DNA of 64,000 nt from positions 60,819 through 124,818 of the forward strand of contig CAZZFK010000003.1 of NCBI GenBank assembly GCA_964653455.1, written 5' to 3'. The translations under genes were made by a program, and so were the position numbers. Position 1 is the first letter of the stretch, and every line of letters starts with the position of its first letter. The stretch comes from an uncultured bacterium. GTDB lineage: Bacteria; Margulisbacteria; Termititenacia; CAZZFK01. The notes under the pieces are model-generated. The model was not told the origin of the DNA. It saw nothing but the letters and a program-made list of their open reading frames with translations, and made no database searches. Positions 2,320 to 59,279 of this stretch are shown piece after piece.

Positions 2320-2330
2320 GTTCGTTATCC

Positions 2331-3299: not shown

Positions 3300-3315
3300 C
3301 GTATATTCCCTATGT

Positions 3316-6169: not shown

Positions 6170-6177
6170 GGTGTTCT

Positions 6178-6283
6178 TGACCCCTCCCACCGCTTTCAGC
6201 GGTTCCCCCTCCCCAATGCCCTTACTAGCTTGCCCCGAGCAATGCCGAGGGGTATTGGGGAGGGGGCTAGGGGGTGAGGTTTG
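6178..6283. repeat. GC-rich REP-like palindromic element (family member 1)
   Basis: Stem CCCCCTCCCCAATGCCC...GGGTATTGGGGAGGGGG. Its left end GACCCCTCCCACC (6179-6191) is identical to 20653-20665. The inner 22-mer matches the 25.4 kb element at 18/22 positions. Confidence 0.75.
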
Positions 6284-7279: not shown

Positions 7280-7447
7280 GTTAGTAACAGCCTCCGTTCC
7301 GGGTCATTTTTGCCATATTTTAAAAAAACAGTCAAAAAAATCAAGTGCCCACATCCATCATACCATATGACCAAGTCACACATACAATTCCTGCACAGAG
7401 ACCATTCGATGTCAATCTTTTGTTGATGAATGAATGTCGATAAATAT

Positions 7448-7475
7448 TTGACGCGCAAGTCCTGCGTGTTATAAT
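7448..7475 (+). promoter_or_regulatory. sigma70-type promoter for hppA
   Basis: TTGACG-16 nt-TATAAT with extended -10 TG. Confidence 0.7.
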
Positions 7476-7566
7476 TCGCCGCATTGTTTCCGTAAGTTTC
7501 TAGTCGGGCTGAGTTAATTCCGGGCGACCGGGTAACAGGTCGCAGAAAGAAAAAAGGAGCAGTGTA

Positions 7567-9765: not shown

Positions 9766-9792
9766 GCATAGACAGGGTAATAGTCAGATATA

Positions 9793-9829
9793 AAGCACCC
9801 CACGGCAGATAGCTGTGGGGTGTTTTTTT
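9793..9829 (+). terminator. Intrinsic terminator after hppA
   Basis: CACCCCACGGC-AGATA-GCTGTGGGGTG stem followed by a T run. Confidence 0.85.
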
Positions 9830-9838
9830 ATATTTGTT

Positions 9839-9867
9839 TTTACTTGCTTAATGATATTTGCTATACT
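9839..9867 (+). promoter_or_regulatory. Promoter upstream of riboswitch copy 1
   Basis: TTTACT-17 nt-TATACT with extended -10 TG. Confidence 0.55.
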
Positions 9868-9891
9868 GGCCATGTTGGTAAGTTAATTAAC

Positions 9892-9939
9892 GGGTCCAAT
9901 TGCACTAAGCGATTGGAGGCATTTGATGGTCGGGCCGCC
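9892..9939 (+). ncRNA. Riboswitch aptamer, nhaA-I-like (Li+/Na+ class), copy 1
   Basis: GGG-[TCCAATTGC ACTAA GCGATTGGA hairpin]-GGC-ATTTG-ATGGTCGGGCC-GCC. It lies between a promoter and a terminator, and a covarying second copy is at 16502-16547. The class assignment is from my recollection of the nhaA-I consensus, not a search. Confidence 0.75.
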
Positions 9940-9967
9940 ATCTGAACACATTCAGATGGTTTTTTTT
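9938..9967 (+). terminator. Riboswitch expression-platform terminator
   Basis: CCATCTGAA-CACA-TTCAGATGG perfect 9-bp stem + T8. The first two C residues belong to the aptamer 3' end. Confidence 0.85.
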
Positions 9968-10009
9968 GTTCAAAAAGCCACCTGAATACTATTTCAAGGA
10001 GGCTTGATC

Positions 10010-10156
10010 ATGGACGAAAATAACATTCCAGTAAAAACACAAAAAGAAGAAGAACGATCCAGGCGCGGTTTTGATTATAATTGGTTCGCGGTCCTGGGCG
10101 TTGTTTTATATATTATTTTGATCATTGTGTTGCAGCGTGTTTTCCATATCATATAG
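10010..10156 (+). CDS. Small single-TM membrane protein, 48 aa (unannotated)
   Basis: AAGGAGG RBS, then MDENNIPVKTQKEEERSRRGFDYNWFAVLGVVLYIILIIVLQRVFHII*. Its stop overlaps the AGGAG RBS of the next gene. Confidence 0.7.
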   Translation: MDENNIPVKTQKEEERSRRGFDYNWFAVLGVVLYIILIIVLQRVFHII

Positions 10157-10165
10157 GAGCGGCTG

Positions 10166-12481
10166 TTGCTCAATAGTATGAAACTGCCAATTTTTTTAAA
10201 AAATGCGCTCAATACGGTACGTGCATTATACAGATATATATTTGATCTCACGGAGGTTTCTGCTCAGCATCGAGGGCATAATGATCCCGGACGTCTCCTG
10301 ATCGTTTCGAACCGTCTGCCGGTAACTGTTTCTATCAGTAGCAGCAACGTTGCGTATGAACCGAGCTCCGGAGGTCTGGCGACCGGGCTTGCTTCATATA
10401 TCAAAAATAGTGAACACAAGAACAGTTCCCTCTGGATAGGGTGGCCCGGCAGCACGATATGCGAAGAGAAAAAACTCCAGGTCCAGACCGATCTCTTTCA
10501 TGACCATGCCTGTGTTCCTGTATATCTTGATGAGACTGCAATGGATCAGTTCTATCATGGGTTCTGCAATAAAACGCTCTGGCCCCTTTTCCATTATTTT
10601 CAGGTATTCACTGAATTCCGTGATGATTTTTGGAAGAATTATGAGGAGGTCAATCAACGTTTCTGTGACGCGGTACTGGAACATGCCGGACCGAACGATA
10701 CGGTATGGGTGCATGACTATCATCTGATGCTTTTACCAAAAATGCTGCGGGAAAAAATCCCCAAATTGAAAATAGTGTTCTTTCTGCACATCCCGTTCCC
10801 GACCTATGAGATATTCCGGTTATTGCCCAAGAACTGGCGCGAATCGATCCTGTCCGGTCTTTTGGGTGCGGATGTTATTGGGTTCCATACGCATAGCGAT
10901 GTTCAGTATTTCCTGAGCTCGGCGCTGCGTATCCTTGGTATTGAACATACAACAGGACAATTGCGCTATGACGGACGTCTTATAAAGGTCGACGCGTTCC
11001 CTATGGGGATAGATTTTCAGAAATTCAACTCTGCGGCCAGCTCCTCCGCGGTCACAGCTGAAAAGGATACGATCCGTAATAGCTTTGGGAACAGAAAGCT
11101 CGTTCTTTCTCTTGACAGGCTGGATTATACAAAGGGGATCAAACAACGGCTGCTCGGGTTTGAACGGTTCATTGATGAGCATCCTGAGTGGGTCGGTAAC
11201 GTGTCACTGATGATGGTCATTATCCCGTCGCGTATCGCGGTCGGCTCCTATCAGGACATGAAAAAACAGCTTGATGAAGAGATCGGGCGTATAAACGGCC
11301 GGTTCACGAAACTTGATTGGACCCCGATCATATACCGATATAAGAGCATTCCTTTTACGGAGCTTGTCGCGCTGTACGCCGCGGCAGATGTCGCATTGGT
11401 CACACCCTTGAGGGACGGGATGAACCTTATAGCCAAGGAGTATCTGGCCAGCAAGGCTGATGCGACCGGAGTCCTGATCTTAAGCGAGATGGCGGGGGCT
11501 GCGAAAGAATTAACTGAAGCGATCATCATCAATCCGAACAACACTGAAGAAATGTCGGCCGCTATCCATACAGCCCTGAATATGCCCGTTGAGGAGCAGC
11601 GACGTCGCAATGAACACTTGCGCTCACGGCTTGAGCGCTATGATGTGGCGCGTTGGGCAAAGAACATACTGGATAAGGTGAATGAGGTCTTTGATATACG
11701 TATACGGTCCACTTCTGCGGTATTTTTGGGCAATGAACAGCGTGAATTCGTCAAACGAGCGCTCCGCATGTCCGTCAAAAAGCTCATACTGCTCGACCAT
11801 GACGGCACGTTGGTCCCTTTTATGGATGATCCGATACTTGCAGAACCAGGACCGAATGTTATCTCGCTGCTCTCAAAGTTATGCAACGTGACGGGAACAG
11901 ATGTGGTCATTATCAGTGGACGTGACAAGGCGACCCTTGAATCGTGGTATGGAGGATCGCCCGTGCAGCTGGTAGCCGAGCATGGTGCGTCTGTCAGGAA
12001 TAAAAATGGTGTTTGGCGAACGAAAAAACACCTGCATAGCGGATGGAAACAGGACCTTCGCCCGATATTCGAGAAATATGCCGATGCACTCCCGGGGTCA
12101 TTTGTGGAGGAAAAAGAACATTCACTTGTCTGGCATTATCGTATGGCGGACCTGGAACATGGGGCCATGAAGAAGAAAGAGCTGATAGATGATCTGGTAC
12201 ACTTTACCGCGAACGTTGATCTGAGCGTGCTGCAGGGGAACAAGATCGTTGAGATACGCAATAGTACAGTGAACAAAGGCTCGACGGTAGGTGAGTTAGT
12301 GAGCAAGAAAGCGTATGACCTTTGTATCGCGATCGGGGATGATGTCACCGATGAAGACATGTTCAGGGCCGTTCCCAAAGGCTCCATCACAATAAAGGTC
12401 GGCACGGGAGATACGGCCGCTGCTTATTATACAAAAAGCTATCGTGATGTTATTGACCTGATAAAGAATTTGACGGATTGA
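10166..12481 (+). CDS. otsAB: Bifunctional trehalose-6-phosphate synthase/phosphatase (GT20 + HAD-IIB)
   Basis: LLIVSNRLP, SSGGLA, WVHDYHL, FFLHIPFP, DRLDYTKGI, TPLRDGMNLIAKEY, LSEMAGAA, then DHDGTL and IGDDVTDEDMF. Confidence 0.95.
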   Translation: MLNSMKLPIFLKNALNTVRALYRYIFDLTEVSAQHRGHNDPGRLLIVSNRLPVTVSISSSNVAYEPSSGGLATGLASYIKNSEHKNSSLWIGWPGSTICEEKKLQVQTDLFHDHACVPVYLDETAMDQFYHGFCNKTLWPLFHYFQVFTEFRDDFWKNYEEVNQRFCDAVLEHAGPNDTVWVHDYHLMLLPKMLREKIPKLKIVFFLHIPFPTYEIFRLLPKNWRESILSGLLGADVIGFHTHSDVQYFLSSALRILGIEHTTGQLRYDGRLIKVDAFPMGIDFQKFNSAASSSAVTAEKDTIRNSFGNRKLVLSLDRLDYTKGIKQRLLGFERFIDEHPEWVGNVSLMMVIIPSRIAVGSYQDMKKQLDEEIGRINGRFTKLDWTPIIYRYKSIPFTELVALYAAADVALVTPLRDGMNLIAKEYLASKADATGVLILSEMAGAAKELTEAIIINPNNTEEMSAAIHTALNMPVEEQRRRNEHLRSRLERYDVARWAKNILDKVNEVFDIRIRSTSAVFLGNEQREFVKRALRMSVKKLILLDHDGTLVPFMDDPILAEPGPNVISLLSKLCNVTGTDVVIISGRDKATLESWYGGSPVQLVAEHGASVRNKNGVWRTKKHLHSGWKQDLRPIFEKYADALPGSFVEEKEHSLVWHYRMADLEHGAMKKKELIDDLVHFTANVDLSVLQGNKIVEIRNSTVNKGSTVGELVSKKAYDLCIAIGDDVTDEDMFRAVPKGSITIKVGTGDTAAAYYTKSYRDVIDLIKNLTD

Positions 12482-12509
12482 CAAGCGGTCATCTGAGGGA
12501 GCGTGAGAT

Positions 12510-12629
12510 ATGACATTAGCAGGATGGATATTTATGATCTCATACTGGACACTGATCTTTGCTGTTTTGATCTTTTGTTTCGGATATATCTTTGTTCAAG
12601 AGCGAGCGAAATACAAGAAAAAGCGATAA
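12510..12629 (+). CDS. Small membrane protein, 39 aa (unannotated)
   Basis: GAGGGAG RBS, then MTLAGWIFMISYWTLIFAVLIFCFGYIFVQERAKYKKKR*: a hydrophobic helix with a basic tail. Confidence 0.7.
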   Translation: MTLAGWIFMISYWTLIFAVLIFCFGYIFVQERAKYKKKR

Positions 12630-12724
12630 TCGCCCGGGCATAAGATATGTATTCCGTATCCTTTCAAAAACAACCCCTACGGCTTATAATGAGTTCGGCA
12701 AGATAGACATTGGGGGTATATGCT

Positions 12725-14188
12725 ATGGTCTCCATTCAACGAAAGTCCTTAAGGATGAGCCCCGACCCCAAAAGGGTCGTTGCGCGCCATTATATGACGT
12801 ACGACAGTGCGTGTGTCAGAACGGTCGCCGAGCAGGTCCTGAATATGTCTGCCGATGAAGTGAGCAAAATGTTCAGGGATATTTTGGAGCACTATTCTTC
12901 CCGTCATCGTAGTATCACGAAGGTGCTGAAATACCATTTTGAAAGAGCCATGAGCGACGGCAATACCGGACTTTCTCCGGATGCTTTCAGCGAACAGCAG
13001 CAACTGGTGTTGGGGGCCTATTTCACGATGGAATACTCTATCGAATCCGCGGCCTTTTTCAATCCTTCCATCGTTGAAGCTCCGGACCAGAGCGGACTCT
13101 CTGCCGGTGAGAAAAAGGTCATAGTAAGTTTTCGGGCTGTCGGGGAGGGCCATATTTCTTCCCTAGTGTTCAGAGAAGGTATTATCAACAGAAGAAATGA
13201 CCTGAAAATAAACCCCAATCGCAACAATATCGTAGATATGCCCGAAAAGATAACCAGGTTCATCTATGAAAAGGAAAAATTCGTTCAAAAGATGAAGGAG
13301 ATGGCACTGCCTGAAAAGATCTGTCTACTTGCCGAAAAAAAACTGAAGGATACCTTTGTGTATGGAAAGCTGCGTGATTGGCTGGAGGCCTGTTCTCTCG
13401 ATCCCGCATTGGATGAAAAGGAAAAAGAAGTGTTGCCTCAGGTGCTGTGGCTGGCAAAGTCGCACTACGAAGTATCTTTTTCTTTAGATACATCCATATC
13501 GGAACGGGTCCTTTTCCCGATCTCATACCGGGAAACGAACGGGATCGAAGATGTTCGTTTTGTGCGTTTTATTGAAGATACCGGAGAGCCCGTCTACTAT
13601 GGTACCTACACGGCATATAATGGCAGTTCGATACTCCCCAAACTTTTGAGAACAAAAGATTTTTACACGTTCACGATATTGCCGATACATGGTCCGCACG
13701 TACAGAACAAAGGTTTAGCACTGTTCCCCAGAAAGATAAACGGTAAATATGTCATGTTGTCGCGCCTGGACGGCATCAATAATTACCTTATGTATTCCGA
13801 TGATATCTATGTCTGGCCGGAAAAAGCGGTCTTGCTCCAAAGACCCGAATTTCCCTGGGAGTTCATGAAGGTCGGCAACTGCGGCTCTCCGCTGGAGACA
13901 CCTCAGGGCTGGCTTTTGATCACACATGGAGTAGGCCCAATGCGCCAGTATTGTCTGGGTGCGACGCTGCTAGACCTGAAAGACCCCTCAAGAACGATCG
14001 GACGGTTAAAACAACCGCTATTGATCCCGAATTCCGAAGAAAGAGAAGGGTATGTCCCGAACGTGGTCTATTCCTGCGGGAGCATGATACACGGAGATGA
14101 TCTGATCATTCCCTACGGGATGGCGGATCAATGCTCCACCTATGCGGTCGTTCCGCTCAAAAAGCTTCTACAAGAATTGACCGCGTAA
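12725..14188 (+). CDS. GH130-like glycosidase/phosphorylase (PH1107-related, five-bladed propeller)
   Basis: EYSIESAAFFNPSIV, YYGTYTAYNG, NKGLALFPRKING, VGNCGSP, THGVGP, REGYVPNVVYSCG. A separate promoter-like TTTCAA-17 nt-TATAAT lies upstream. Confidence 0.8.
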   Translation: MVSIQRKSLRMSPDPKRVVARHYMTYDSACVRTVAEQVLNMSADEVSKMFRDILEHYSSRHRSITKVLKYHFERAMSDGNTGLSPDAFSEQQQLVLGAYFTMEYSIESAAFFNPSIVEAPDQSGLSAGEKKVIVSFRAVGEGHISSLVFREGIINRRNDLKINPNRNNIVDMPEKITRFIYEKEKFVQKMKEMALPEKICLLAEKKLKDTFVYGKLRDWLEACSLDPALDEKEKEVLPQVLWLAKSHYEVSFSLDTSISERVLFPISYRETNGIEDVRFVRFIEDTGEPVYYGTYTAYNGSSILPKLLRTKDFYTFTILPIHGPHVQNKGLALFPRKINGKYVMLSRLDGINNYLMYSDDIYVWPEKAVLLQRPEFPWEFMKVGNCGSPLETPQGWLLITHGVGPMRQYCLGATLLDLKDPSRTIGRLKQPLLIPNSEEREGYVPNVVYSCGSMIHGDDLIIPYGMADQCSTYAVVPLKKLLQELTA

Positions 14189-14193
14189 CGTCA

Positions 14194-16446
14194 TTATTTC
14201 TTTGAAAGATCGTACAATAGTTCTTCATGTGCGATCAATACGGTCATGTGCGCAATAGAGAAGGCCAGCGTGCTTTCAGCCCCCTGGTTTCGGCTGACCC
14301 TGTCTTTCTCCAGTCCATCATTACAGCCTTTCGTTTCAAAGTCGTATAACGGCATGCGTAAAAAATTCTCACCCAGGAACCAGTTGTAGGCCAGGTACAT
14401 TTTTTCCAGAAAAGAGCGGTCTTTGGTCAGCGAGTAGGCCGTGTGATACAGCAGCACCATGCCCATAGCATTGACCGGCTGTTGCGCCGCAAGCGCGGGT
14501 TTCCCGTCTTTCGGATACCAGCCGTTACTGCCAATGACAGAAAGATAGTCGTTCTTGAACTTCGTTCTTTCCAGAAAAGCGAGCGCTTCCAGCGCAATGG
14601 TCTTATACTCTTCATTACGCAATACTTTGTAGGAATGCAGTAAGGCCAGGGGGATCATGCCGTTGGCATAGGCGATGACAGATTCGAACCAGTGCCAATC
14701 TTCGGTGCGTTCGCTCTTATATGCGCTCACGAGGAGCTGTGCCTGTTTTTTCATGATCTGTGCGCAGCGTTCGTTGTCCGGATATCTGTACAGGAAAAAA
14801 GCCAGCCCAATGATGCAGAACGCAATGGCCCGGATGCTTTTGATGTTGTCTATGTTCGGAAGGGCTTTTTCGAACATCTCCCGGCCTATCTGGAACAACA
14901 CTTCATTGGGCGGATAATGTATGAGATAGCCCAGGGCCCAAACGGACCTCCCGAATGAATCCTCTGTCCCTTTTTCATCAAGGAATTTCCGGTCAAAGCT
15001 CAGGAAATTCCGGAACGTGCCGTCCTCGTTCTGCATGTACATGAGGAATTTCAGATATATGCCTATCAGCCGGAATGCTTCGGGGTCCTCTTCCTGCCGG
15101 TAGGCCATGATCGTTGTGATGAGCGCCCGCGCGTTATCGTCCGTGCAATAACCTTCCTTGAGATTTGGGATGCTATAGCGCGCGTGCTGTACGATGCCGG
15201 TATCATCGGTCAGCCGGATGATATGTTCCAGGCTGAACTCAGGCATACCTGTGGGCGTGAAAGGAAGGGGACTGTCGATGTTCTTGACCTGCTTGGACTG
15301 CTGCTTTAAACAGCGATTGAACTCAGAAAGATATTCTTTTCCGATCACAGACCATGTCGTTCTTCTGCCATAGGCATAGGCAAGCCTGCGGGTATGTTCA
15401 AGTTGCCTCGGATTATCCAGCAGCTGCATGAGAATACCAGATAATTGCTGGGAATTATTAAAATCGAACAGGTATCCTCGGTCATCGGCCAGGACCTCCT
15501 CGGCATGCCAGTAGGGCGTGGAAATGACCGCGGCGCCGGAACCGATGGCATATGAGAGCGTCCCGCTGGTGATCTGGCGTTTGTTCAGATAGGGCGTGAT
15601 ATAGATGTCCGCAGCGGAAAGATACAGGACCAATTCTTTCTCGCTCACGAATTCATCATGAAAATGGACATGATCTTCCAGCTCCAGTTTCTCCACAAGC
15701 CTGATGAGATAGTTGCGGTATTCCTCCCCGGAATATTTAAGGACATGCGGATGGGTCTTGCCGAGGATGATATAGGTAAGGTTCGGATGTTTTTTTATGA
15801 GGTCCGGCAGCGCACGTATCACGGTCTCTATCCCCTTATTACGGTTCAAGAGGCCGAAGGTCAGGAGCGTTTTTTTATCCTCCAGATTGAGCGCCTGTTT
15901 GCAGCGCAGCCCATGCTTATAATTGATGTCCGGGACACCATGTTGTATGAGCTTGATCTTTTCTGCGGGTACACCGTAGGTGTTTGTCAAGAATTGGATC
16001 GCTTTATTGCTCATGACGATAAGTTTCTCCGCTTTTGCGGCTATCTCCTGAATGATTATCTTTTCATTGAATGACGGAGCTTCAAGGACCGTATGCAGTG
16101 TGGCATAGACCGGGATCTTTAGATTATGGATCAGCGAGAGGAGATATATACCGCTTTCTCCGCCATAGATACCATATTCGTGTTGAATGAGGCAGATATC
16201 CGCTCCGCTATAGTTTATATAGCCCGCCGCTTCGATATAGTCGCGTTGATGTTCCTGGCGTATGACACATTCCACGATCTCGGGATATGAATACCTGTCC
16301 ATCGGAGATTGCATGGCGGTAACGAACACATCTGCCTTAGGCAAATGCTGTTTGACGAGAGCTTTGAGCAGATTTTGAGAGAAGGTCGCGATACCGCATT
16401 CTCGGGGAGGGTAGGTACAGATAAGGGCTATTTTGAGCTTTTTCAT
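14194..16446 (-). CDS. GT4 glycosyltransferase fused to a C-terminal (alpha/alpha)6-like domain
   Basis: TYPPRECGIATFS, IQHEYGIYGG, FGLLNRNKGIE, YITPYLN..QITSGTL, STPYWHAEE, then TDDTGIVQHA, YCTDDNARAL, NQGAESTL. Start MKKLKIA follows an AAGGA RBS. Confidence 0.85.
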   Translation of the reverse strand: MKKLKIALICTYPPRECGIATFSQNLLKALVKQHLPKADVFVTAMQSPMDRYSYPEIVECVIRQEHQRDYIEAAGYINYSGADICLIQHEYGIYGGESGIYLLSLIHNLKIPVYATLHTVLEAPSFNEKIIIQEIAAKAEKLIVMSNKAIQFLTNTYGVPAEKIKLIQHGVPDINYKHGLRCKQALNLEDKKTLLTFGLLNRNKGIETVIRALPDLIKKHPNLTYIILGKTHPHVLKYSGEEYRNYLIRLVEKLELEDHVHFHDEFVSEKELVLYLSAADIYITPYLNKRQITSGTLSYAIGSGAAVISTPYWHAEEVLADDRGYLFDFNNSQQLSGILMQLLDNPRQLEHTRRLAYAYGRRTTWSVIGKEYLSEFNRCLKQQSKQVKNIDSPLPFTPTGMPEFSLEHIIRLTDDTGIVQHARYSIPNLKEGYCTDDNARALITTIMAYRQEEDPEAFRLIGIYLKFLMYMQNEDGTFRNFLSFDRKFLDEKGTEDSFGRSVWALGYLIHYPPNEVLFQIGREMFEKALPNIDNIKSIRAIAFCIIGLAFFLYRYPDNERCAQIMKKQAQLLVSAYKSERTEDWHWFESVIAYANGMIPLALLHSYKVLRNEEYKTIALEALAFLERTKFKNDYLSVIGSNGWYPKDGKPALAAQQPVNAMGMVLLYHTAYSLTKDRSFLEKMYLAYNWFLGENFLRMPLYDFETKGCNDGLEKDRVSRNQGAESTLAFSIAHMTVLIAHEELLYDLSKK

Positions 16447-52990: not shown

Positions 52991-54748
52991 ATGTCATATC
53001 TTGCTCTCTACAGAAAATACCGACCACAGACCTTTGATGATGTTATTGGCCAGGAAGCGGTCGTACGAACGCTCAAGAACGCCATCACCAATAATATGCT
53101 CGCTCATGCCTATGTTTTTTCCGGTCCTCGCGGTACGGGAAAGACCAGCATGGCACGTATCCTGGCAAAGGCGCTCAATTGCCGCGAAGGGCTTTCTGTC
53201 TCCCCCTGCCTGAAATGCGACCTCTGTTCTCGTATCACCAGCGGCGACGCGCTCGATGTGTTCGAGATCGATGCCGCATCAAATCGCCGCATCGATGATA
53301 TCCGTGACCTGAGAGACAAGATCATGTTCGCTCCGGTCGAAGGCCGCTACAAGGTCTATATCATCGACGAAGCGCACATGCTTACGGATGAAGCGTTCAA
53401 TGCACTGCTGAAGACCCTTGAAGAGCCTCCCGCACAGACCTTGTTCATTTTAGCCACGACCGATGCCCATAAGATACCGGTGACGATACTTTCCCGCTGC
53501 CAGCGCATCGAATTCAAGCGCATCACCATCCCGCACATCCTTACGCAACTGAAGAAGATATCGGCACAGGAGAACATCACCATCGATGATAAGGCATTAT
53601 CGCTCATCGCCAAGTCCTCGGAAGGGGGCATGAGAGATTCCGTATCGCTCCTCGATCAGATCGTATCTTTCAAGGGGGCTGTCATTACGGCCGATGATGT
53701 TCTGACCGTGCTCGGGTCTTCGGACAGCACCGCCTTATTCACTATGATCGAACATGTGAGCACCGAAAATGCAGGACAAGCGCTCGCATACCTTGAAGAG
53801 CTCGTTATTTCCGGAAAGAACATCCCGCAGCTCACCAAAGACCTGCTCATGCACATCAGACATGTGATCCTCTCAAAAGCCGGGGCGGAAGCGGCGATAG
53901 ATCTTCCTGCCGACATGATAGCTCAGGTACATGCACAGGCATCCCGCTTCACGTTGCCCGAGCTCAAGGAGATCGTCCGTATCATATCCAAAGCTGATAG
54001 CGATATGCGCTGGTATCCGAACGCCAGACTGCTACTGGAGATAGCACTTGTTGAGATATGCTCGTTGAAAAAGAACGTCCAGAACGCGACCACACCCCGT
54101 ACCGTGACCGCCACACCGCAGCTTCCGTCCGCACAGTCCTCTGCATCGCAGAACGTGCGTTCTGTCACGATACAAAAAGCTTCTGTCCCTGCGGAACCTG
54201 TGCCTGAACTGCGTTCCAGCATCGCCACACAGCCCGTAGTACCTCCGCAGCCAACCTCAAGACCACCGGTCGCTGAACCGGTCGAGATAGCTGCGCACCC
54301 CCCCGAACCAGTATCACCGCCACCATCTGTCACGCACAGCAGCACTCAGGAGATCCGCTCCCTTGCAGAGATAAAGCATCACTGGCAGGATATCCTCAAT
54401 CAGATCAAGGAACGCAAAAAGTTCACATATCTCATATTATGTGAAAGCGAACCTGTTGAGCTTTCGGGCGGAAAATTGATATTACGGTTCAAAAAGAACT
54501 CGACGTTCCATAAAGAGAAATTCCTTGATAAAGAACATCAAGATATCTTTCAACAAATACTGAAACAGTACATTTCAGGCCCCATAGAGGTCACGGCGGA
54601 TGTCCAGGGGCTCATGCACGGGGAAATAGAAGGTTCGGGGACCACTACACACGCTGCGAACAAGGGCCCGCAGGGCGGACCGCCGCCGGCTTCCGTTGAA
54701 CGCACTCTCGCTTCCATGTTCGACGGAAAACTGATGTACGGTAAATAG
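52991..54748 (+). CDS. dnaX: DNA polymerase III subunit gamma/tau
   Basis: YRKYRPQTF, GPRGTGKT, EIDAASN, IIDEAHML, NALLKTLEEPP, SRCQ, Pro-rich linker. Confidence 0.97.
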   Translation: MSYLALYRKYRPQTFDDVIGQEAVVRTLKNAITNNMLAHAYVFSGPRGTGKTSMARILAKALNCREGLSVSPCLKCDLCSRITSGDALDVFEIDAASNRRIDDIRDLRDKIMFAPVEGRYKVYIIDEAHMLTDEAFNALLKTLEEPPAQTLFILATTDAHKIPVTILSRCQRIEFKRITIPHILTQLKKISAQENITIDDKALSLIAKSSEGGMRDSVSLLDQIVSFKGAVITADDVLTVLGSSDSTALFTMIEHVSTENAGQALAYLEELVISGKNIPQLTKDLLMHIRHVILSKAGAEAAIDLPADMIAQVHAQASRFTLPELKEIVRIISKADSDMRWYPNARLLLEIALVEICSLKKNVQNATTPRTVTATPQLPSAQSSASQNVRSVTIQKASVPAEPVPELRSSIATQPVVPPQPTSRPPVAEPVEIAAHPPEPVSPPPSVTHSSTQEIRSLAEIKHHWQDILNQIKERKKFTYLILCESEPVELSGGKLILRFKKNSTFHKEKFLDKEHQDIFQQILKQYISGPIEVTADVQGLMHGEIEGSGTTTHAANKGPQGGPPPASVERTLASMFDGKLMYGK

Positions 54749-54779: not shown

Positions 54780-55517
54780 CTACCTTGTCCCGTTCCTGAT
54801 ACCGTTACGGATCTCGTTTATCTCAGCGTCCATCGTTGCAAGCCTTTTTGCCATACGTTCGTCCTGATCATTACTTTTTATCACTTTTTGGATCCCCCCC
54901 GACTTGAAGACCAGTCGAACATCTGTCCTGAGCGCGATCAAAGGATCGTGGGTCGCTATGAAGGTGATCGTTCTTTTTTTCAGCAAGAACTCAAGGGCCT
55001 TCTGCCTGTCGATACCGGCGTTCTCTATCTCATCGATCAAAAGAATTGGGGCAGCGCTTATCAGCACTGCGTCCGCGACCATGAGCGCACGAGCCTGTCC
55101 GCCGCTGAGAGAGCACAACGGTTGATCGGCTGAGAACGGTTCACCCGCGAGATTGTTCGCGGCCTCAAGGACCGAAGGAACGATACGCGATGCCTTCTTT
55201 TCGTACAGCAACGCATGCATCTCTATGAATTCGCGTACCGTCAGATCCAGAAAGAACTGCATGGTCTGTGATATCCGGGTGACGGACATGATCTTTCTGG
55301 GCGTATGTCCGCTGATACTGATATGCCGGCCGGTCGGAGAATCGGACTGCGCCAATCTTTCGATATCATCAAGGAACCGTGTCTTTCCCGAACCGGTAGG
55401 GCCGACGACCGCTACAACAGAACCGCTCGAAAAGACCAGTTCACGGATGTTCTCTTTTTTCCCGTTCTTATCCGTTCCGGGCTTAATGATCAGAGCTCTT
55501 GTTGCTGCCTTACTCAT
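54780..55517 (-). CDS. Stand-alone ABC-type ATPase
   Basis: GPTGSGKT, LSGGQ, ILLIDE, ATHD, N-terminal PGTDKNGKKE motif. ATGAGTAA overlap with the upstream gene. Confidence 0.85.
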   Translation of the reverse strand: MSKAATRALIIKPGTDKNGKKENIRELVFSSGSVVAVVGPTGSGKTRFLDDIERLAQSDSPTGRHISISGHTPRKIMSVTRISQTMQFFLDLTVREFIEMHALLYEKKASRIVPSVLEAANNLAGEPFSADQPLCSLSGGQARALMVADAVLISAAPILLIDEIENAGIDRQKALEFLLKKRTITFIATHDPLIALRTDVRLVFKSGGIQKVIKSNDQDERMAKRLATMDAEINEIRNGIRNGTR

Positions 55518-56154
55518 GGCCGGATCCTTTCCCCTGACAAAAATGACAATATCCCTTTGGTAGGGTATATCGCAGGAATTCATAATCGGTCAAGGTAATA
55601 TCCTGCAGATGCTCGATCATCTGCACAAGTTCGTTCGTCCCTTCCCCGGTAAGGCCGTTGCCGTACAGAACGGTACCGTGCGGGTTGATGGTCTTCAGAT
55701 TATTGAGCAACAATTGCCGTTCGGCATGACTGAGGAGCTCGGCCTTCGTGAGCACCAGAACATCCGCGGCGGTGATAAGGGCGCTCAATTTCAGCTGATG
55801 TCCGATATTGGACAATCCGCTGACAACAGCGACCGCAGCAGCCCGGCTCAAATAAGGAGAACAACGCAGACATAACCCGGCTGTCTCAATGATGAGAACC
55901 TCCGCTTTCTGCTGTTGTGCCCATACCCACACCTGTCCAAAGACCATCATCGTCTCATGGTCAGGACACATCGTACCGACACAATGATAGTTCACAGGAA
56001 CACCCAGTGCTGTATACCGTTGTTCCCGCTTTGCAGAAAGTGACAGGACGGAGATGCAGGAACGAATCCCTTTTGTCGTGAGCTGAGCGATCGCATGACG
56101 TATGATAGCGGTCTTTCCCGCACCGGCAGTGCCTGCGACAATGATGATCTTCAT
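55510..56154 (-). CDS. HypB/UreG/CobW-like GTPase paralog (degenerate G motifs)
   Basis: GTAGAGKT, MCPDH, ETAGLCLRCSPY, TKAE, NGLTGEG, C-terminal YCHFC. ATGA overlap with the radical SAM gene. Confidence 0.8.
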   Translation of the reverse strand: MKIIIVAGTAGAGKTAIIRHAIAQLTTKGIRSCISVLSLSAKREQRYTALGVPVNYHCVGTMCPDHETMMVFGQVWVWAQQQKAEVLIIETAGLCLRCSPYLSRAAAVAVVSGLSNIGHQLKLSALITAADVLVLTKAELLSHAERQLLLNNLKTINPHGTVLYGNGLTGEGTNELVQMIEHLQDITLTDYEFLRYTLPKGYCHFCQGKGSGHE

Positions 56155-57473
56155 ATGGCCGGCACCTTCTTCCTGATAGGCTTCAGTTCGTTCATACCAT
56201 AGAGCTGGGCATAGCCCCGTGAGACACCGACACATTCACGATAGAAGCAACAGTGCCGGCATTGAGGCGCTTTTACTCTCCTGATAAGATCGAGGAACAG
56301 CCGATCAAAGACGGGGCCTGAACCGGTCCGGTATAATCGAAAAGGCATCGCGTGTATCTCCATACAATACTTCTCCATGCCCTTGAATAAACACAGAGGA
56401 AATGACCCGTAGGTCATCGGTATGCCTGCCGCATGACAGATACGCAAAGCCTCCTTGACGAACGGGACCACGTCCGTAAATCGAGGTACGAGACTGTGTC
56501 TGTTCTCCCATGCATTCTCTTCCGGGCACACGATCTCCAGGAACGGAAAGAACCTGTGCCGGGCTTTTTTTCCCACCCGGACAAGATACCGTGCAAGCTC
56601 CGGAAGTGTACGATAGTTCTGTGCCGTGACCGTGGTCCAGACCTTGAGCGGTACATCGGGCAGATGCAGTACCCGCTCCAGCCCTTCCCGGACAAGCTCA
56701 TATGAAGGGGACCTCCATAATCTTTCCGAAAGCTCCTTTTCACATGCATCAAAAGAAATCCCGAACCCCGTCGCACCGCAGCTGATCAGGCTTTCAAGAT
56801 ATCCGGCAGAAGAGAGCCTGGCCCCGTTCGTGGCGATGAGGATCTGCCTGAACCCCAGGTCCTTGGAGAATTTTATCAAGGCGAACAGGTCCGGGTGTAT
56901 GGTCGGTTCTCCCCCGGAAAAAGATATCTTTTCGATACCGTTCTTTTTCCCGTAAAGGATATCATCCGTTATGTCCTTTAACGGACGAGCATGTTTCTTT
57001 TCATGTCCGACACAACAGTACAGACAATTGAAATTACAACAAGACCCGATATTCACTTCCAGAGAAGGCAGATACTCGGTGCAATATCTGTTGATCTCAG
57101 GGATGAGCAAGGGGCTGTTCCGTATCTCGCGACTGCCCGTGACGGTAATGAAAGAATGATCTTTTAGGTACAGGATCCTCTCGAGCAGCTTTATCTCGAC
57201 ATCCAACCGTTCAGTATGCCGGCTTGCTGTCCGGGAGATCGCTCCCGTCAACTCTTTCGTTATCGTGTATTTTTTGCCTCGATCGGCGGGTACTTCCCGG
57301 ACCAACCCCTTCTTGAGCAAGGCGGGAATGACACGGCGAACGTTCTTCTCCTCCATCTGACAGAGATGAGGGAGCTGCTCGAACGGTTCTTCTCGAAGTA
57401 ATATGAAATTCTCTAATAAGGACCACTGGTCCGGGGTCAAGGCTAATGCCGCGGGGATATCAATGAATTCCAT
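56151..57473 (-). CDS. Radical SAM enzyme with an N-terminal winged-helix-like domain and a C-terminal Cys cluster
   Basis: CNFNCLYC (CxxxCxxC), SGGEPTIHP, TNG, C-terminal CRHCCFYREC. Confidence 0.88.
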   Translation of the reverse strand: MEFIDIPAALALTPDQWSLLENFILLREEPFEQLPHLCQMEEKNVRRVIPALLKKGLVREVPADRGKKYTITKELTGAISRTASRHTERLDVEIKLLERILYLKDHSFITVTGSREIRNSPLLIPEINRYCTEYLPSLEVNIGSCCNFNCLYCCVGHEKKHARPLKDITDDILYGKKNGIEKISFSGGEPTIHPDLFALIKFSKDLGFRQILIATNGARLSSAGYLESLISCGATGFGISFDACEKELSERLWRSPSYELVREGLERVLHLPDVPLKVWTTVTAQNYRTLPELARYLVRVGKKARHRFFPFLEIVCPEENAWENRHSLVPRFTDVVPFVKEALRICHAAGIPMTYGSFPLCLFKGMEKYCMEIHAMPFRLYRTGSGPVFDRLFLDLIRRVKAPQCRHCCFYRECVGVSRGYAQLYGMNELKPIRKKVPAI

Positions 57474-58143
57474 AGGGACCTTGTTGTGAAAATGCCATAT
57501 CCACGATCACATTACCAAAACAGTAGGTACAGTACATTTGAGGCAAGGGAGTGCGCAACCGGACCGCTGCCCCTGATCTTTTTTTTCGGGACATGATGCT
57601 CCTGACGGTCCGGGCAAGCACCTGTGTCCCTTCACCGGTAATACCGTTGAACCAGACGATCGTCGCAGCAGGGTGTTCGGACAGCACACGTACCGTGAAC
57701 ACTTCGCGTTCAGCAGGAGAAATGAGATCGCCCTTGGTAATGACGCAGCAGTCCGCACTTTTCAGCACCGGACCGAGTCGCGAGGGACCATGCATCCCAC
57801 AGGTACAGTCAATAACGCAGATATTCACCGTTGAGAAAAGATATGGGGAGCATCTGCCGCAAAGTCCTGCGGTCTCAATGACCACCGTATCTAACGCGTG
57901 CCCGGCGGCCCATGTTCGGACCTCAGGGATATTCTCAGCCAGAAAATGATCGGGACATATATCATTTGAAATGAATTTTATCGACGGTATCGAATGTTCA
58001 GCGAAGAACGTGTCATCCTGGGTCGCACTGCAATCGACCTTAACGACCCCCGTTGAACTCATATGTTCTTGAGACTTGAGCAACGATACTATGACCCTCG
58101 TTTTTCCCGAGGACGGAGGCCCACCCACAATGATCATTTTCAT
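57460..58143 (-). CDS. HypB/UreG/CobW-like GTP-binding protein
   Basis: GPPSSGKT, KVDC, ICPDH, ETAGLCGRCSPY, TKGD, NGITGEG, C-terminal YCTYC. Confidence 0.85.
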   Translation of the reverse strand: MKMIIVGGPPSSGKTRVIVSLLKSQEHMSSTGVVKVDCSATQDDTFFAEHSIPSIKFISNDICPDHFLAENIPEVRTWAAGHALDTVVIETAGLCGRCSPYLFSTVNICVIDCTCGMHGPSRLGPVLKSADCCVITKGDLISPAEREVFTVRVLSEHPAATIVWFNGITGEGTQVLARTVRSIMSRKKRSGAAVRLRTPLPQMYCTYCFGNVIVDMAFSQQGPYGIH

Positions 58144-58154
58144 GTAATGCGCCA

Positions 58155-58191
58155 ATTATACGTTCACCCGTATCAATTATCAATTTATCAT
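58155..58191 (-). promoter_or_regulatory. Promoter of the radical SAM/GTPase cassette with a repeated TGATAA/TTGATA array
   Basis: TTGATA (58183-58178)-17 nt-TATAAT (58160-58155). ATGATAAATTGATAATTGATA overlaps the -35. Confidence 0.6.
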
Positions 58192-58284
58192 GGTCTTCGC
58201 ACCCGCGCCGTGCCACCTCACATTTTTTCTGCCCTGTGCTATAATCGCCATGCTTTCGCATCATGTAACAAAGGAGCATGCACT

Positions 58285-58596
58285 ATGTTCGGCGATATCG
58301 GCAAAATGATGAAACAGGTCAATGAAATGAAAGCAAAGATGAAGGATGTTGAAAAAGAATTGAACTCAATGGTCATCAAAGGTACGTCCTCAGATGCCAT
58401 GGTGGAAGTAGAAATGACAGGAAAAATGGACCTCAAGACCCTTACCATAAATCCTCAGCTTATTGCACAAAATGACCCTAAAAAACTTGAAAAAAGCGTG
58501 TTCGATGCTTTTTCAAAGGTATTGAAAATAACAAAAGACACTGCCTCTTCAAAACTTGGTGCAGTTACCGGCGGCATGAAACTGCCGGGGATGTAA
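58285..58596 (+). CDS. ybaB: YbaB/EbfC nucleoid-associated protein
   Basis: MFGDIGKMMKQ, C-terminal GGMKLPGM, upstream of recR. AAGGAG RBS and its own TGnTATAAT at 58237-58245. Confidence 0.92.
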   Translation: MFGDIGKMMKQVNEMKAKMKDVEKELNSMVIKGTSSDAMVEVEMTGKMDLKTLTINPQLIAQNDPKKLEKSVFDAFSKVLKITKDTASSKLGAVTGGMKLPGM

Positions 58597-58660: not shown

Positions 58661-58676
58661 TTGAGAAGGTTTGATA

Positions 58677-59279
58677 ATGATCGATGCATATCCTGAGCCG
58701 ATGAACGTGCTCATCAATGAATTCCAGAAGATGCCAAGCATCGGTCCTAAATCGGCGCAGCGGCTTGCGTTCTATATCCTTGGGTTGAGCGACCAAGAGG
58801 CCGGGAACCTCACCGATGCCATCAGCAAGGTCAAGGGAAGCATCAAACATTGCTCGGTCTGTCACAATATAACGGTCAGTGATCCCTGTACCTATTGTGC
58901 CGATGCATCACGGGACCATACCATGATATGTGTCGTTTCCGAACCGCGTGATATCATCGCCATGGAAAAGACGGGGGGGTTCAAAGGCGTCTATCATGTA
59001 CTGGGCGGGCTCCTTTCACCGCTTGAAGGCGTCACGCCGGAAACGCTGAGGATCAAGGAATTGCTACAACGGATATCAACGCAGAACGTAAGGGAATTGA
59101 TACTGGCGTTGAATCCGACCGTCGAAGGAGAGGCCACCGTGCTGTACCTTTCACGGCTCATAAAGCCGTCCGGGGTCAAAATGATGAGGATCGCCTACGG
59201 ATTGCCCATCGGGAGCGATATCGATTATGCCGATGAAGTGACATTGACGAAATCCTTCGAAGGCAGGATAGAGGTCTAG
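58677..59279 (+). CDS. recR: Recombination mediator RecR
   Basis: PSIGPKSAQRLA, C4 zinc finger, YHVLGG, ALNPTVEGEAT, IAYGLP, DYAD. Confidence 0.97.
   Translation: MIDAYPEPMNVLINEFQKMPSIGPKSAQRLAFYILGLSDQEAGNLTDAISKVKGSIKHCSVCHNITVSDPCTYCADASRDHTMICVVSEPRDIIAMEKTGGFKGVYHVLGGLLSPLEGVTPETLRIKELLQRISTQNVRELILALNPTVEGEATVLYLSRLIKPSGVKMMRIAYGLPIGSDIDYADEVTLTKSFEGRIEV

What the first reader, a model, noticed from the sequence alone, without database searches (positions are those of the whole stretch)
54780..58191. Radical SAM / twin HypB-like GTPase / orphan ABC-ATPase cassette inside dnaX-ybaB-recR
Seen in the sequence: four genes with overlapping stop/start junctions behind one consensus promoter, antisense between dnaX and ybaB-recR. 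The order is GTPase, wHTH-radical SAM, GTPase, ABC ATPase, with no permease or substrate-binding protein. Both GTPases are Cys/His-rich (CPDH, CxxC, terminal YCxxC), and the radical SAM has a C-terminal CxxCCxxxxC cluster. Established knowledge: dnaX-ybaB-recR is usually contiguous, and HypB/UreG/CobW GTPases deliver metals to enzymes. From memory, this GTPase + ABC-ATPase pair occurs in anaerobes without an assigned function. Inference: an inserted, self-contained metallocofactor-maturation or protein-modification machine. I know of no described system with this composition.
Basis: partly seen in the sequence, partly recalled or inferred. Interest (0 to 1): 0.75.

Follow-up and report, generated by a model that had tools for sequence, protein, structure and literature searches.

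The report
Twin GTPase, radical SAM, ABC-ATPase operon
A real, rare four-gene operon (two nickel-chaperone-like GTPases, a radical SAM enzyme and a transporter-less ABC ATPase) recurs intact in unrelated anaerobe genomes; it most likely builds or delivers a metal or iron-sulfur centre, and I found no description of it.

Summary
Four translationally coupled genes lie on the minus strand at 54780-58143, between dnaX and ybaB-recR. They are G1 (G3E GTPase), a wHTH-like radical SAM enzyme, G2 (a degenerate G3E paralogue) and a 245-aa ABC ATPase with no permease.

The same gene order recurs in at least five other lineages at 38-64% amino-acid identity. The flanks differ and there is no conserved fifth gene, so the module is self-contained. 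It is rare: one orthologue among 185,579 species genomes.

The GTPase + ABC-ATPase pair is a wider, uncharacterised core found in anaerobes. Its third partner varies: a PF04060 Fe-S protein, a cytoplasmic SBP-like protein, or radical SAM enzymes. GTPase-ABC, ABC-rSAM/SPASM and ABC-SBP fusions exist. Some contexts sit beside NifB and nitrogenase-like genes or a ZnuA-type metal importer.

G1's CPDH motif aligns with the Ni-binding CPH motif of UreG.

Best reading: a GTP- and ATP-driven metal or Fe-S centre handling machine, with the radical SAM enzyme as builder or client. The substrate and target are unknown. "Inserted" is not shown: composition is native. No curated family or paper that I could find describes the system.

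The parts
58155..58183 (-). Sigma-70-like promoter TTGATA-17-TATAAT for the operon. It leaves a leader of about 5 nt with no Shine-Dalgarno sequence, so the first gene is near-leaderless.
   Evidence: (11/12 match) and the sequence. Function is inferred from position only; the site count in the region is not above shuffles.
57460..58143 (-). G1: canonical G3E (HypB/UreG-like) GTPase, 227 aa. It has a P-loop GGPPSSGKT, switch I VKVDCxxTxDD, CPDH (63-66), ETAGLCGRC (90-98), TKGD (136-139) and a C-terminal YCTYC (204-208).
   Evidence: PF02492 at 4e-12. HypB and UreG HMM hits are below their cut-offs. AF2 model pLDDT 85; best PDB folds are HypB 2hf8 (TM 0.64-0.75) and UreG. CPDH aligns with the CPH of UreG. 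Orthologues are 44-48% identical.
56151..57473 (-). Radical SAM enzyme, 440 aa. Residues 1-105 form a wHTH-like N-terminal domain. The core carries C146-x3-C150-x2-C153 and GGEPT. The motif PEENAW is invariant. A twitch-like auxiliary cluster site is formed by C361, C405, C408 and C414.
   Evidence: PF04055 at 8.8e-19. The best NCBIfam hit is HxsC4 at 99 bits against a cut-off of 500. AF2 model pLDDT 80.5. PDB fold hits are generic rSAM enzymes. wHTH evidence is.
55510..56154 (-). G2: divergent G3E paralogue, 214 aa. It keeps the P-loop, CPDH, ETAGLCLRC and the C-terminal GYCHFCQG. Its G4 motif is TKAE (aspartate lost), and in this genome switch I reads SVLSLSAKRE.
   Evidence: PF02492 at 6e-8. 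G2-type sequences form a separate short-form group; their G4 motif has lost the canonical TKGD form and most have lost the aspartate. The 8-nt overlap with the ABC start is conserved in 4 of 5 loci.
54780..55517 (-). Soluble ABC-type ATPase, 245 aa, single NBD. Motifs: Walker A GPTGSGKT, Q-loop ISQTMQF, signature LSGGQ, Walker B LLIDE + ENAGID, H-loop ATHDP. It also has an N-terminal PGTDKxGxxE motif and a C-terminal helix. There is no transmembrane domain.
   Evidence: PF00005 at 3e-12. It belongs to a distinct subfamily: 92 representatives at E<1e-30 among 1.84 billion. Members are fused to the GTPase, to rSAM/SPASM, to SBP_bac_6 or to a nitroreductase. Orthologues are 54-64% identical.

Best explanation
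The locus is one operon that encodes a soluble, two-NTPase machine for handling a metal or iron-sulfur centre, coupled to a dedicated radical SAM enzyme.

Shown:
- G1 is a canonical G3E GTPase.
- G2 is a paralogue that keeps the P-loop and all Cys/His ligands but has a degenerate guanine-specificity motif.
- The ABC ATPase has every catalytic motif and no membrane partner.
- The rSAM has a complete SAM-cluster site plus a four-Cys auxiliary site.
- The four genes travel together.

Inferred:
- G1 and G2 form a heterodimer. It holds a metal ion or Fe-S unit on CPDH (the UreG CPH position), the G3-loop CxRC and the C-terminal CxxC.
- GTP hydrolysis in G1, together with ATP-driven closure of an ABC dimer, loads or releases that centre.
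- The rSAM either chemically elaborates the bound centre (as HydE/HydG do on HydF, or NifB for NifEN) or is the protein that receives it.
- The final client, if separate, is encoded elsewhere.

The GTPase + ABC pair is the conserved engine. The rSAM + G2 is one of several interchangeable third modules.
For: Synteny:
- The four genes occur in the same order in L001, L005/L006, L013, L173, L174 and the P0072 contig. Identities are 38-64%. The flanks differ (Tricorn/HEAT; glmU-ruvCAB; PGK; nitrogenase-like).
- None of about 160 loci holding more distant rSAM relatives carries the GTPase or the ABC.

G3E identity:
- Pfam cobW hits.
- HypB and UreG are the best folds.
- CPDH, switch I, ExxG and NKxD align with the CPH, switch I, ESGG and NKTD motifs of UreG.
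- CPDH, GLCxRC and the C-terminal CxxC are invariant in 28 family members.
- HypB and UreG use a CH/CPH motif plus a G3-loop Cys as Ni ligands (PMC11672702).

The pair as a unit:
- GTPase and ABC are adjacent in Desulfoscipio, Methanocaldococcus, Mangrovibacterium, Megalodesulfovibrio, Methanomassiliicoccus and Fusobacterium.
- Fusions exist: GTPase-ABC (P0211, P0244), ABC-rSAM/SPASM (P0202, P0238), ABC-SBP (P0255, P0262) and ABC-nitroreductase (P0207).

Metal and cluster context:
- A PF04060 Fe-S partner.
- NifB, NifH-like and nitrogenase-component-1-like neighbours in M. luminyensis and in cassette locus L013.
- A ZnuA-type importer directly downstream in Fusobacterium.
Against: - No metal, cluster, substrate or client has been identified, and there are no experimental data.
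- Nitrogenase-like neighbours occur in only 2-3 of about 12 contexts; the window itself has none within 64 kb.
- The SBP-like and nitroreductase partners do not obviously fit a cluster-delivery model.
- The heterodimer and the four-protein complex are not modelled, because no multimer tool was available.
- The rSAM's nearest named relatives (HxsC/HxsC4) are presumed peptide maturases, not cofactor builders.
- Fusion proteins come from metagenomic gene calls. P0244 reads as a continuous fusion, but I did not inspect the underlying DNA.
Confidence: 0.5

Rival explanations
1. Nucleotide-driven reductive activation. The GTPase dimer carries a bridging Fe-S cluster in the manner of NifH. Together with the ABC ATPase, it uses GTP/ATP hydrolysis to push low-potential electrons into the rSAM cluster. 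In sister systems the electrons would go into or through the PF04060 Fe-S or flavin partner. This is comparable to the ABC-type component A2 in methyl-coenzyme M reductase activation.
For: Most variable partners are redox proteins: rSAM, a PF04060 [4Fe-4S] domain and a nitroreductase. G3E proteins belong to the SIMIBI class together with NifH, and the Cys residues sit right after the switch II ExxG. The trio lies next to an McrD homologue and to methanogenesis marker 8/NifB.
Against: No G3E protein is known to transfer electrons. The CPDH site aligns with a Ni site, not a cluster site. SBP-like partners and the ZnuA neighbourhood point to metal traffic instead. Ordinary rSAM enzymes need no ATP-driven reductase.
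Confidence: 0.15
2. Protein or peptide modification. The rSAM modifies the invariant Cys/Tyr/His-rich C-terminal tail of G2 (GYCHFCQGxGSGHE) or G1 (LPQxYCxYCxG), for example by a thioether or another crosslink. The product would be a modified metal-binding protein or a released peptide. The wHTH-like domain would serve as the docking element.
For: The nearest named rSAM relatives are HxsC/HxsC4, with HxsD and a second rSAM as neighbours in L002 and L004. No separate precursor ORF fits in the tightly packed operon. The G2 tail is invariant in 5 of 5 orthologues.
Against: The C-terminal CxxC is invariant across the whole family, including systems that have no rSAM, so it is primarily a family feature. 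HxsC scores are far below the cut-offs (54 against 268; 99 against 500). There is no protease or exporter gene.
Confidence: 0.12
3. Metal-import accessory. The orphan ABC ATPase powers a permease encoded elsewhere. The GTPases act like COG0523 proteins, passing imported Zn, Ni, Co or Fe to clients under metal limitation. The rSAM is one such client.
For: In Fusobacterium the trio is followed by a ZnuA-type importer. In Desulfoscipio it lies among ABC transporter genes. SBP-like partners and ABC-SBP fusions exist.
Against: Those neighbouring importers carry their own ATPase. The SBP-like partners lack signal peptides. No permease is adjacent in any of the five cassette loci. Fusions of the ABC to cytoplasmic enzymes argue for a soluble role.
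Confidence: 0.1
4. Anti-phage defence cassette: a viperin-like rSAM working with NTPase sensors or effectors.
For: There are weak pVip-profile hits to the rSAM core (72 bits, residues 141-289) and generic ABC-type hits (mad3, AriA). The cassette interrupts a conserved operon.
Against: Only the generic rSAM half matches, and the NCBIfam viperin score is 60 against a cut-off of 180. The GTPases carry conserved metal-ligand motifs. The flanks are housekeeping genes in every locus. Composition is native. Relatives sit by metal-transport and nitrogenase-like genes.
Confidence: 0.03

Closest known systems
HypB / UreG (G3E Ni-inserting GTPases)
   Same: Same fold (TM 0.64-0.75 to HypB 2hf8). P-loop, switch I, ExxG and (N/T)KxD motifs are shared. 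The Cys-Pro-(Asp)-His motif lies at the position of UreG's Ni-binding CPH, and there is a Cys in the G3 loop as in HypB.
   Different: HMM scores are far below the equivalog cut-offs (36-50 bits against 121 for HypB; 25 against 204 for UreG). There are extra invariant Cys residues (CxRC and a C-terminal CxxC). The protein is paired with an ABC ATPase instead of HypA/SlyD or UreEFD. In the cassette it occurs as a canonical + degenerate paralogue pair. No hydrogenase or urease genes are nearby.
COG0523 metallochaperones (CobW, ZigA, YjiA, Zng1)
   Same: They belong to the same G3E superfamily. The Fusobacterium relative sits next to a ZnuA-type importer, as many Zur-regulated COG0523 genes do.
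   Different: The CxCC motif and the COG0523 C-terminal domain are both missing. CobW and ZigA models hit only at E of about 0.004.
HydE/HydF/HydG maturation of the [FeFe]-hydrogenase H-cluster
   Same: Both couple a GTPase carrying Cys/His cluster ligands to radical SAM chemistry, and both build a centre for a client encoded elsewhere. This is a functional analogy only.
   Different: HydF is a TRAFAC-class GTPase, not a G3E protein. The rSAM here is unrelated to HydE and HydG beyond the core fold. HydEFG has no ABC ATPase.
Soluble ABC ATPases in metallocentre biology: SufC (SufBC2D) and MCR activation component A2
   Same: Both are ABC NBDs without a permease that act on soluble protein partners. 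A2-like logic would fit the neighbours in methanogens.
   Different: There is no specific sequence affinity: the best PDB sequence matches are importer NBDs such as PotA at about 1e-12. There is no SufB/SufD partner. A2 has two NBDs, whereas this protein has one.
HxsC / HxsC4 radical SAM proteins (His-Xaa-Ser system)
   Same: They are the best-scoring named rSAM families (99 and 54 bits). The distant homologues P0003 and P0004 lie in Hxs-like clusters.
   Different: Scores are far below the cut-offs (500 and 268). There are no HxsA, HxsB or HxsD genes. Identity to those proteins is only 25-31% and is confined to the core. None of those loci has the GTPase or the ABC.
NifB / NifEN / NifH cofactor assembly
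   Same: An rSAM plus a SIMIBI-class NTPase is used to build a complex cluster. Nitrogenase-family genes and NifB neighbour the pair in M. luminyensis, and nitrogenase-component-1-like genes neighbour the cassette in L013.
   Different: The rSAM here lacks the extra cluster ligands and the NifX domain of NifB. The association appears in a minority of contexts.

Membership tests
G3E P-loop GTPase superfamily (HypB/UreG/MeaB/COG0523) | G1 P-loop GxxxxGK[ST] | tested here: met
   G1 has GGPPSSGKT and G2 has AGTAGAGKT. The motif is invariant in the family alignments.
G3E P-loop GTPase superfamily (HypB/UreG/MeaB/COG0523) | G3 motif ExxG, with Glu in place of Asp | tested here: met
   ETAG is present in G1 and G2 and is invariant (E90, G93). 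It aligns with ESGG of UreG. The definition is taken from PMC11672702.
G3E P-loop GTPase superfamily (HypB/UreG/MeaB/COG0523) | G4 base-specificity motif (N/T)KxD | tested here: inconclusive
   G1 has TKGD, as do 93 of 94 long-form relatives, so G1 meets the feature. G2 has TKAE, and most G2-type sequences have lost the aspartate (TRAE, ARAE, SRVE and similar), so G2 does not meet it.
G3E P-loop GTPase superfamily (HypB/UreG/MeaB/COG0523) | HypB/UreG-like fold | tested here: met
   The G1 AF2 model (pLDDT 85.4) has as top PDB hits HypB 2hf8 (E 3e-11, TM 0.64-0.75), UreG 4hi0 and 5xkt, and HypB 2wsm and 4lps.
HypB or UreG proper (orthologues) | Score above the curated equivalog cut-off, and a hydrogenase or urease accessory-gene context | tested here: not met
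   Against TIGR00073, G1 scores 36 bits and G2 scores 50 bits; the cut-off is 121. Against TIGR00101, G1 scores 25 bits; the cut-off is 204. There are no hyp or ure genes in the window.
HypB or UreG proper (orthologues) | Binding of a metal (Ni/Zn) at the Cys-His site, coupled to GTP | not testable with these tools
   The CPDH motif aligns with the CPH of UreG. Actual binding needs biochemistry.
Radical SAM superfamily | CxxxCxxC cluster motif, a GGE SAM-binding motif, and PF04055 above the gathering score | tested here: met
   C146-x3-C150-x2-C153 and GGEPT(187-191) are present. PF04055 scores 68.7 bits against a cut-off of 29.5.
SPASM/twitch radical SAM subgroup | A C-terminal Cys-rich auxiliary [4Fe-4S] domain | tested here: inconclusive
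   Four Cys are conserved (C361, C405, C408, C414; CxxCx5C), which fits a single-cluster twitch domain. There is no Pfam SPASM hit. The N_Twi_rSAM model scores 46 bits against a cut-off of 170.
HxsC / HxsC4 (His-Xaa-Ser system) | Score above the cut-off and HxsA/B/D neighbours | tested here: not met
   Scores are 99 against 500 and 54 against 268. No Hxs genes occur in any cassette locus.
Viperin / pVip | Full-length match that includes the C-terminal nucleotide-binding extension, and a defence context | tested here: not met
   NF038283 scores 60 bits against a cut-off of 180, and the match covers only core residues 144-289. The flanks are housekeeping genes.
ABC ATPase (NBD) superfamily | Walker A, Q-loop, LSGGQ signature, Walker B, D-loop and H-loop | tested here: met
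   GPTGSGKT, ISQTMQF, LSGGQARAL, LLIDEIENAGID and ATHDP are all invariant in 5 orthologues. PF00005 scores 47.7 bits against a cut-off of 25.
ABC transporter (membrane transport system) | A cognate permease (TMD), with or without an SBP, encoded with or fused to the NBD | tested here: not met
   The protein has no TM segment. No permease lies adjacent in any of the 5 cassette loci or in the archaeal and Bacteroidota trios. Fusions are to soluble domains.
wHTH domain (N-terminus of the rSAM) | Helix-turn-helix followed by a beta-hairpin wing, and a match to a wHTH family | tested here: inconclusive
   The AF2 model shows H14-25, H42-54, E58-62 and E67-71, with pLDDT 49-89. A TrmB wHTH hit at 3.7e-5 was found on the L174 orthologue only; window hits have E of about 0.1 or worse. 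No operator-like palindrome lies in the promoter region.

The most novel reading that the evidence does not exclude
The GTPase family is a fifth, undescribed G3E lineage whose obligate partner is a dedicated soluble ABC ATPase. Together they form a new class of two-NTPase metallocluster chaperone or scaffold in anaerobes. In this cassette the pair, with a degenerate paralogue and a twitch-type rSAM, synthesises or installs a so far unknown metallocofactor, analogous to HydEFG or NifB/NifEN and possibly serving nitrogenase-like or other complex Fe-S enzymes.
Probability: 0.25. Interest if true: 0.85.

Novelty: new variant of a known kind. Interest (0 to 1): 0.65.

Why it matters
G3E GTPases are the main nucleotide-dependent metallochaperones, and four subfamilies are recognised. 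This family carries the UreG/HypB ligand positions plus four more invariant cysteines. It always travels with a transporter-less ABC ATPase and has no assigned function. It is nevertheless present in methanogens, sulfate reducers, Bacteroidota and Fusobacterium.

Working out what it does could reveal a missing step in metal or Fe-S cluster delivery in anaerobes. The step may be linked to NifB and nitrogenase-like enzymes or to radical SAM enzymes.

The four-gene cassette offers a compact set for reconstitution. The Fusobacterium and methanogen relatives offer genetically tractable hosts.

Tried and rejected
1. The metagenome scan with the rSAM alignment was swamped by the generic CN[FL]NC[LV]YC pattern and returned no orthologue. 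None of its 80 loci holds the GTPase or the ABC.
2. The word-indexed protein search missed known orthologues such as the L005 rSAM, so counts are lower bounds.
3. I tested whether the roughly 75-aa N-terminal extension on many ABC homologues is a DUF1858 domain. Pfam gave no hit. hhalign against the Fusobacterium DUF1858 gave 21% probability. This is unresolved and I do not use it.
4. I tested whether the rSAM N-domain is related to that extension or to DUF1858. hhalign probability was below 1%, so I rejected the idea.
5. PADLOC gave only generic core hits, so I rejected a defence role.
6. I looked for an operator palindrome for the wHTH in the 141-nt divergent promoter region and found none.
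7. Rfam and tRNA scans found nothing in or next to the cassette.
8. A compositional test for horizontal insertion showed no signal (z = 1.0; GC3 0.54-0.61 against 0.45-0.66 in neighbouring genes).
9. Six full-text literature searches and two paper look-ups found no description of the pair or the cassette.
10. The rSAM domains fused to ABC homologues (P0202, P0238) are a different lineage: 19-23% identity, confined to the core. The link to rSAM enzymes is therefore recurrent rather than orthologous.
11. Taxonomic placement of the window failed. Its proteins are singletons at 90% identity and carry no source names.

Full report
ANATOMY

On the minus strand, between dnaX (52991-54748, +) and ybaB (58285-58596, +) / recR (58671-59279, +), lie four ORFs:
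- G1: 57460-58143, 227 aa.
- A radical SAM protein: 56151-57473, 440 aa.
- G2: 55510-56154, 214 aa.
- An ABC ATPase: 54780-55517, 245 aa.

Consecutive genes overlap by 14, 4 and 8 nt. The G1 and ABC starts I chose reproduce the sequences on record in the protein collection exactly.

A TTGATA-17-TATAAT site (11/12) at 58183-58155 is the only strong promoter-like match on that strand. Promoter-like sites are not enriched over shuffles in the region, so the site is supported by position only. It ends 11 nt before the G1 ATG and there is no Shine-Dalgarno sequence, so the first gene is probably near-leaderless. The three downstream genes have purine-rich sequences ahead of their starts.

Domain hits:
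- cobW/HypB/UreG (PF02492) for G1 (4e-12) and G2 (6e-8).
- Radical_SAM (8.8e-19).
- ABC_tran (3e-12).

The flanks are unambiguous dnaX, ybaB and recR. None of the four proteins has a membrane-spanning stretch.

IS IT A UNIT?

The rSAM is very rare. A word-indexed search of 5.8 billion clusters found only two full-length relatives at 40-44% identity. A scan of one genome from each of 185,579 species found one, in a Deltaproteobacteria MAG (L013).

Looking up contigs through G2-type GTPases recovered more copies. In every case where the contig is long enough, the order is G1-rSAM-G2-ABC:
- L001 (partial), L005/L006, L013, L173 and L174.
- The P0072 contig, for which only gene calls are available.

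Orthologue identities to the window are 44-48% (G1), 38-41% (rSAM), 41-46% (G2) and 54-64% (ABC). G1 and G2 are distinct lineages: G1 to G1 is about 48% identical, against 31-38% for G1 to G2.

The 8-nt G2/ABC overlap is conserved in 4 of 5 loci.

The flanks differ:
- Tricorn-like and HEAT genes in L005 and L173.
- An LPG synthase on one side and glmU-yebC-ruvCAB on the other in L174.
- PGK and glmU on the P0072 contig.
- A second HxsC-like rSAM plus two nitrogenase-component-1-like genes in L013.

No fifth gene is conserved. Conversely, none of about 160 loci that hold more distant rSAM relatives contains the GTPase or the ABC.

THE WIDER FAMILY

The GTPase search returned 427 clusters. About 27 are short G2-type sequences. 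The rest are 231-250-aa 'long' forms that are closer to G1 (38-42%) than to G2 (31-34%).

In every context examined, the long form sits beside an ABC ATPase of the same subfamily as the window's (39-45% identity):
- Desulfoscipio and Megalodesulfovibrio, with a signal-peptide-less SBP_bac_6 protein.
- Methanocaldococcus sp. FS406-22, Mangrovibacterium and Methanomassiliicoccus luminyensis, with a 211-219-aa protein that carries a PF04060 Fe-S domain.
- Fusobacterium vincentii, with a DUF1858-SBP_bac_6 protein and a divergent small rSAM upstream. Downstream lie DUF6162 and then a ZnuA-type metal importer that has its own ATPase and permease.

An exhaustive HMMER pass over 1.84 billion representatives shows the ABC subfamily is small: 92 representatives at E<1e-30. 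It includes proteins fused to:
- the GTPase (P0211, P0244);
- rSAM/SPASM domains (P0202, P0238);
- SBP_bac_6 (P0255, P0262);
- a nitroreductase (P0207).

The fused rSAM domains belong to a different rSAM lineage from the cassette's. The association with rSAM enzymes therefore arose more than once.

In M. luminyensis the trio lies next to methanogenesis marker 8, a bona fide NifB (454 bits against a cut-off of 344), a NifH-like gene and nitrogenase-component-1-like genes. In L013 the cassette lies next to nitrogenase-like genes. These links are suggestive but appear in a minority of contexts.

No NCBIfam model names any member.

THE PROTEINS

G1 has every G3E hallmark. Its model (pLDDT 85) is closest to HypB (2hf8, TM 0.64-0.75) and UreG. 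In the phmmer alignment to UreG:
- VKVDCxxTxDD aligns with switch I.
- CPDH aligns with the Ni-binding CPH.
- IETAG aligns with ESGG.
- ITKGD aligns with INKTD.

According to PMC11672702, HypB uses a CH motif plus a G3-loop Cys as Ni ligands, and G3E proteins are defined by ExxG.

Across 28 family members the following are invariant: CPDH, E-T-A-G-L-C-x-R-C-x-P, AER, NGLTG-G and a C-terminal P-x3-C-x2-C. That gives five Cys and one His per chain.

G2-type proteins keep the P-loop and all these ligands but have a degenerate G4 motif (TRAE, TKAE, ARAE, SRVE and similar). In contrast, 93 of 94 long forms have TKGD. The window's G2 has also lost the switch-I K-x-D...D residues. G2 therefore looks like a nucleotide-binding but catalytically altered partner, and a G1/G2 heterodimer is the natural inference.

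The ABC ATPase has intact Walker A, Q-loop, LSGGQ, Walker B/D-loop and H-loop motifs. It also carries a subfamily-specific N-terminal P-G-x-D-K-x-G-x2-E motif and a C-terminal helix. Its best PDB sequence matches are ordinary importer NBDs (PotA, about 1e-12), so it has no specific affinity to SufC or similar proteins.

The rSAM model (pLDDT 80.5) shows three parts:
- An N-terminal helix/helix/beta-hairpin domain. It is wHTH-like; the only Pfam support is a TrmB hit at 3.7e-5 on one orthologue.
- A standard partial TIM-barrel core.
- A C-terminal region with four conserved Cys (C361, C405, C408, C414), which fits a twitch-type auxiliary cluster.

Fold and sequence matches are generic: GDGT-MAS, BlsE, DesII, SuiB, viperin and MoaA. 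The best named families, HxsC4 and HxsC, score far below their cut-offs.

WHAT IT MOST LIKELY DOES

Shown: this is a conserved operon of a canonical G3E GTPase, a degenerate paralogue, a soluble ABC ATPase and an apparently active rSAM with one auxiliary cluster. The GTPase + ABC pair is a conserved core with interchangeable third partners and is sometimes fused.

Inferred: the GTPase dimer binds a metal ion or Fe-S unit at the UreG/HypB-type interface site, which is enlarged here by CxRC and CxxC. GTP and ATP hydrolysis drive loading and release. The rSAM either elaborates the bound centre (by analogy with HydE/HydG on HydF, or NifB) or receives it. I put about 0.5 on this general reading.

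Rivals:
- Nucleotide-driven electron delivery to the rSAM or other redox partner (0.15).
- rSAM modification of the GTPase tails (0.12).
- An accessory role to a membrane importer (0.10).
- Phage defence (0.03; only generic PADLOC hits).

'INSERTED'?

dnaX-ybaB-recR is normally contiguous (established knowledge, as in the E. coli operon), and here it is split. However:
- The tetranucleotide distance of the cassette from the window mean is z = 1.0, and GC3 is within the local range.
- There are no repeats or mobile-element genes.
- No sister genome could be retrieved.

In other genomes the cassette sits at unrelated positions. The split is real. A recent insertion is not demonstrated.

NOVELTY

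Six full-text searches and two paper look-ups found no description. No curated family covers any of the components as a system.

It belongs to a known kind, nucleotide-dependent metallocentre maturation with rSAM chemistry. It differs in three ways: it uses an undescribed G3E lineage, it has an obligate soluble ABC ATPase partner, and it has a canonical/degenerate GTPase pair. I therefore rate it a new variant of a known kind.

Noticed in passing
window 9892-9943 (+): An nhaA-I Na+ riboswitch (RF03057, 48.9 bits against a gathering score of 37). It lies between a membrane pyrophosphatase gene (7567-9765) and a fused trehalose-6-phosphate synthase/phosphatase gene (10166-12481; OtsA PDB hits at 1e-123 plus T6P phosphatase hits). 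This suggests sodium-sensing control of compatible-solute synthesis.
   Followed up: partly
window 58143-58183 (-): The operon's first gene appears near-leaderless. The -10 box ends 11 nt before the ATG and no Shine-Dalgarno sequence is present. ybaB, now separated from dnaX, has its own divergent promoter-like site (CTCACA-17-TATAAT with TG, 58217-58245) and a GGAG Shine-Dalgarno sequence.
   Followed up: partly
L175 (Methanomassiliicoccus luminyensis CAJE01000024), 5294-12753: An ABC ATPase / G3E GTPase / PF04060 Fe-S protein trio lies directly beside methanogenesis marker 8, a NifB scoring above its cut-off, a NifH-like gene and two nitrogenase-component-1-like genes.
   Followed up: partly
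L013 (Deltaproteobacteria MAG JAADHL010000255), 125-7349: Upstream of the cassette copy lie two further HxsC/HxsC4-like radical SAM genes and a divergent pair of nitrogenase-component-1-like genes (PF00148, 2e-42 and 4e-24) that match no named Nif/Bch/Cfb subunit.
   Followed up: partly
L178 (Fusobacterium vincentii CP084075, a 2.1-Mb record filed as a plasmid), 5737-15116: The gene order is: small divergent rSAM, DUF1858-SBP_bac_6 fusion, GTPase, ABC ATPase, DUF6162, two ZnuA-type SBPs, ABC ATPase, ABC-3 permease. The record is evidently a chromosome and carries essentially no annotation in PLSDB.
   Followed up: partly
P0198-P0248 (ABC homologues), N-terminal ~75 residues: Many ABC ATPases of this subfamily are about 330-345 aa long. 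They carry a conserved helical N-terminal extension that the window protein lacks. The extension resembles DUF1858 only weakly (hhalign probability 21%).
   Followed up: partly
L179 (IMG/VR UViG_3300025308_000147), 208-1154: A long-form GTPase is followed by a PF04060-like ORF that abuts phage genes (DNA methyltransferase, tail-fibre-like genes). This is probably a prophage border rather than a viral copy of the system.
   Followed up: no
window 1-7279 (-): A MoxR-type ATPase gene is followed by a run of genes for signal-peptide or TM-bearing proteins. The arrangement looks like a Bat/aerotolerance-type operon. I judged this by eye from the translations only.
   Followed up: no
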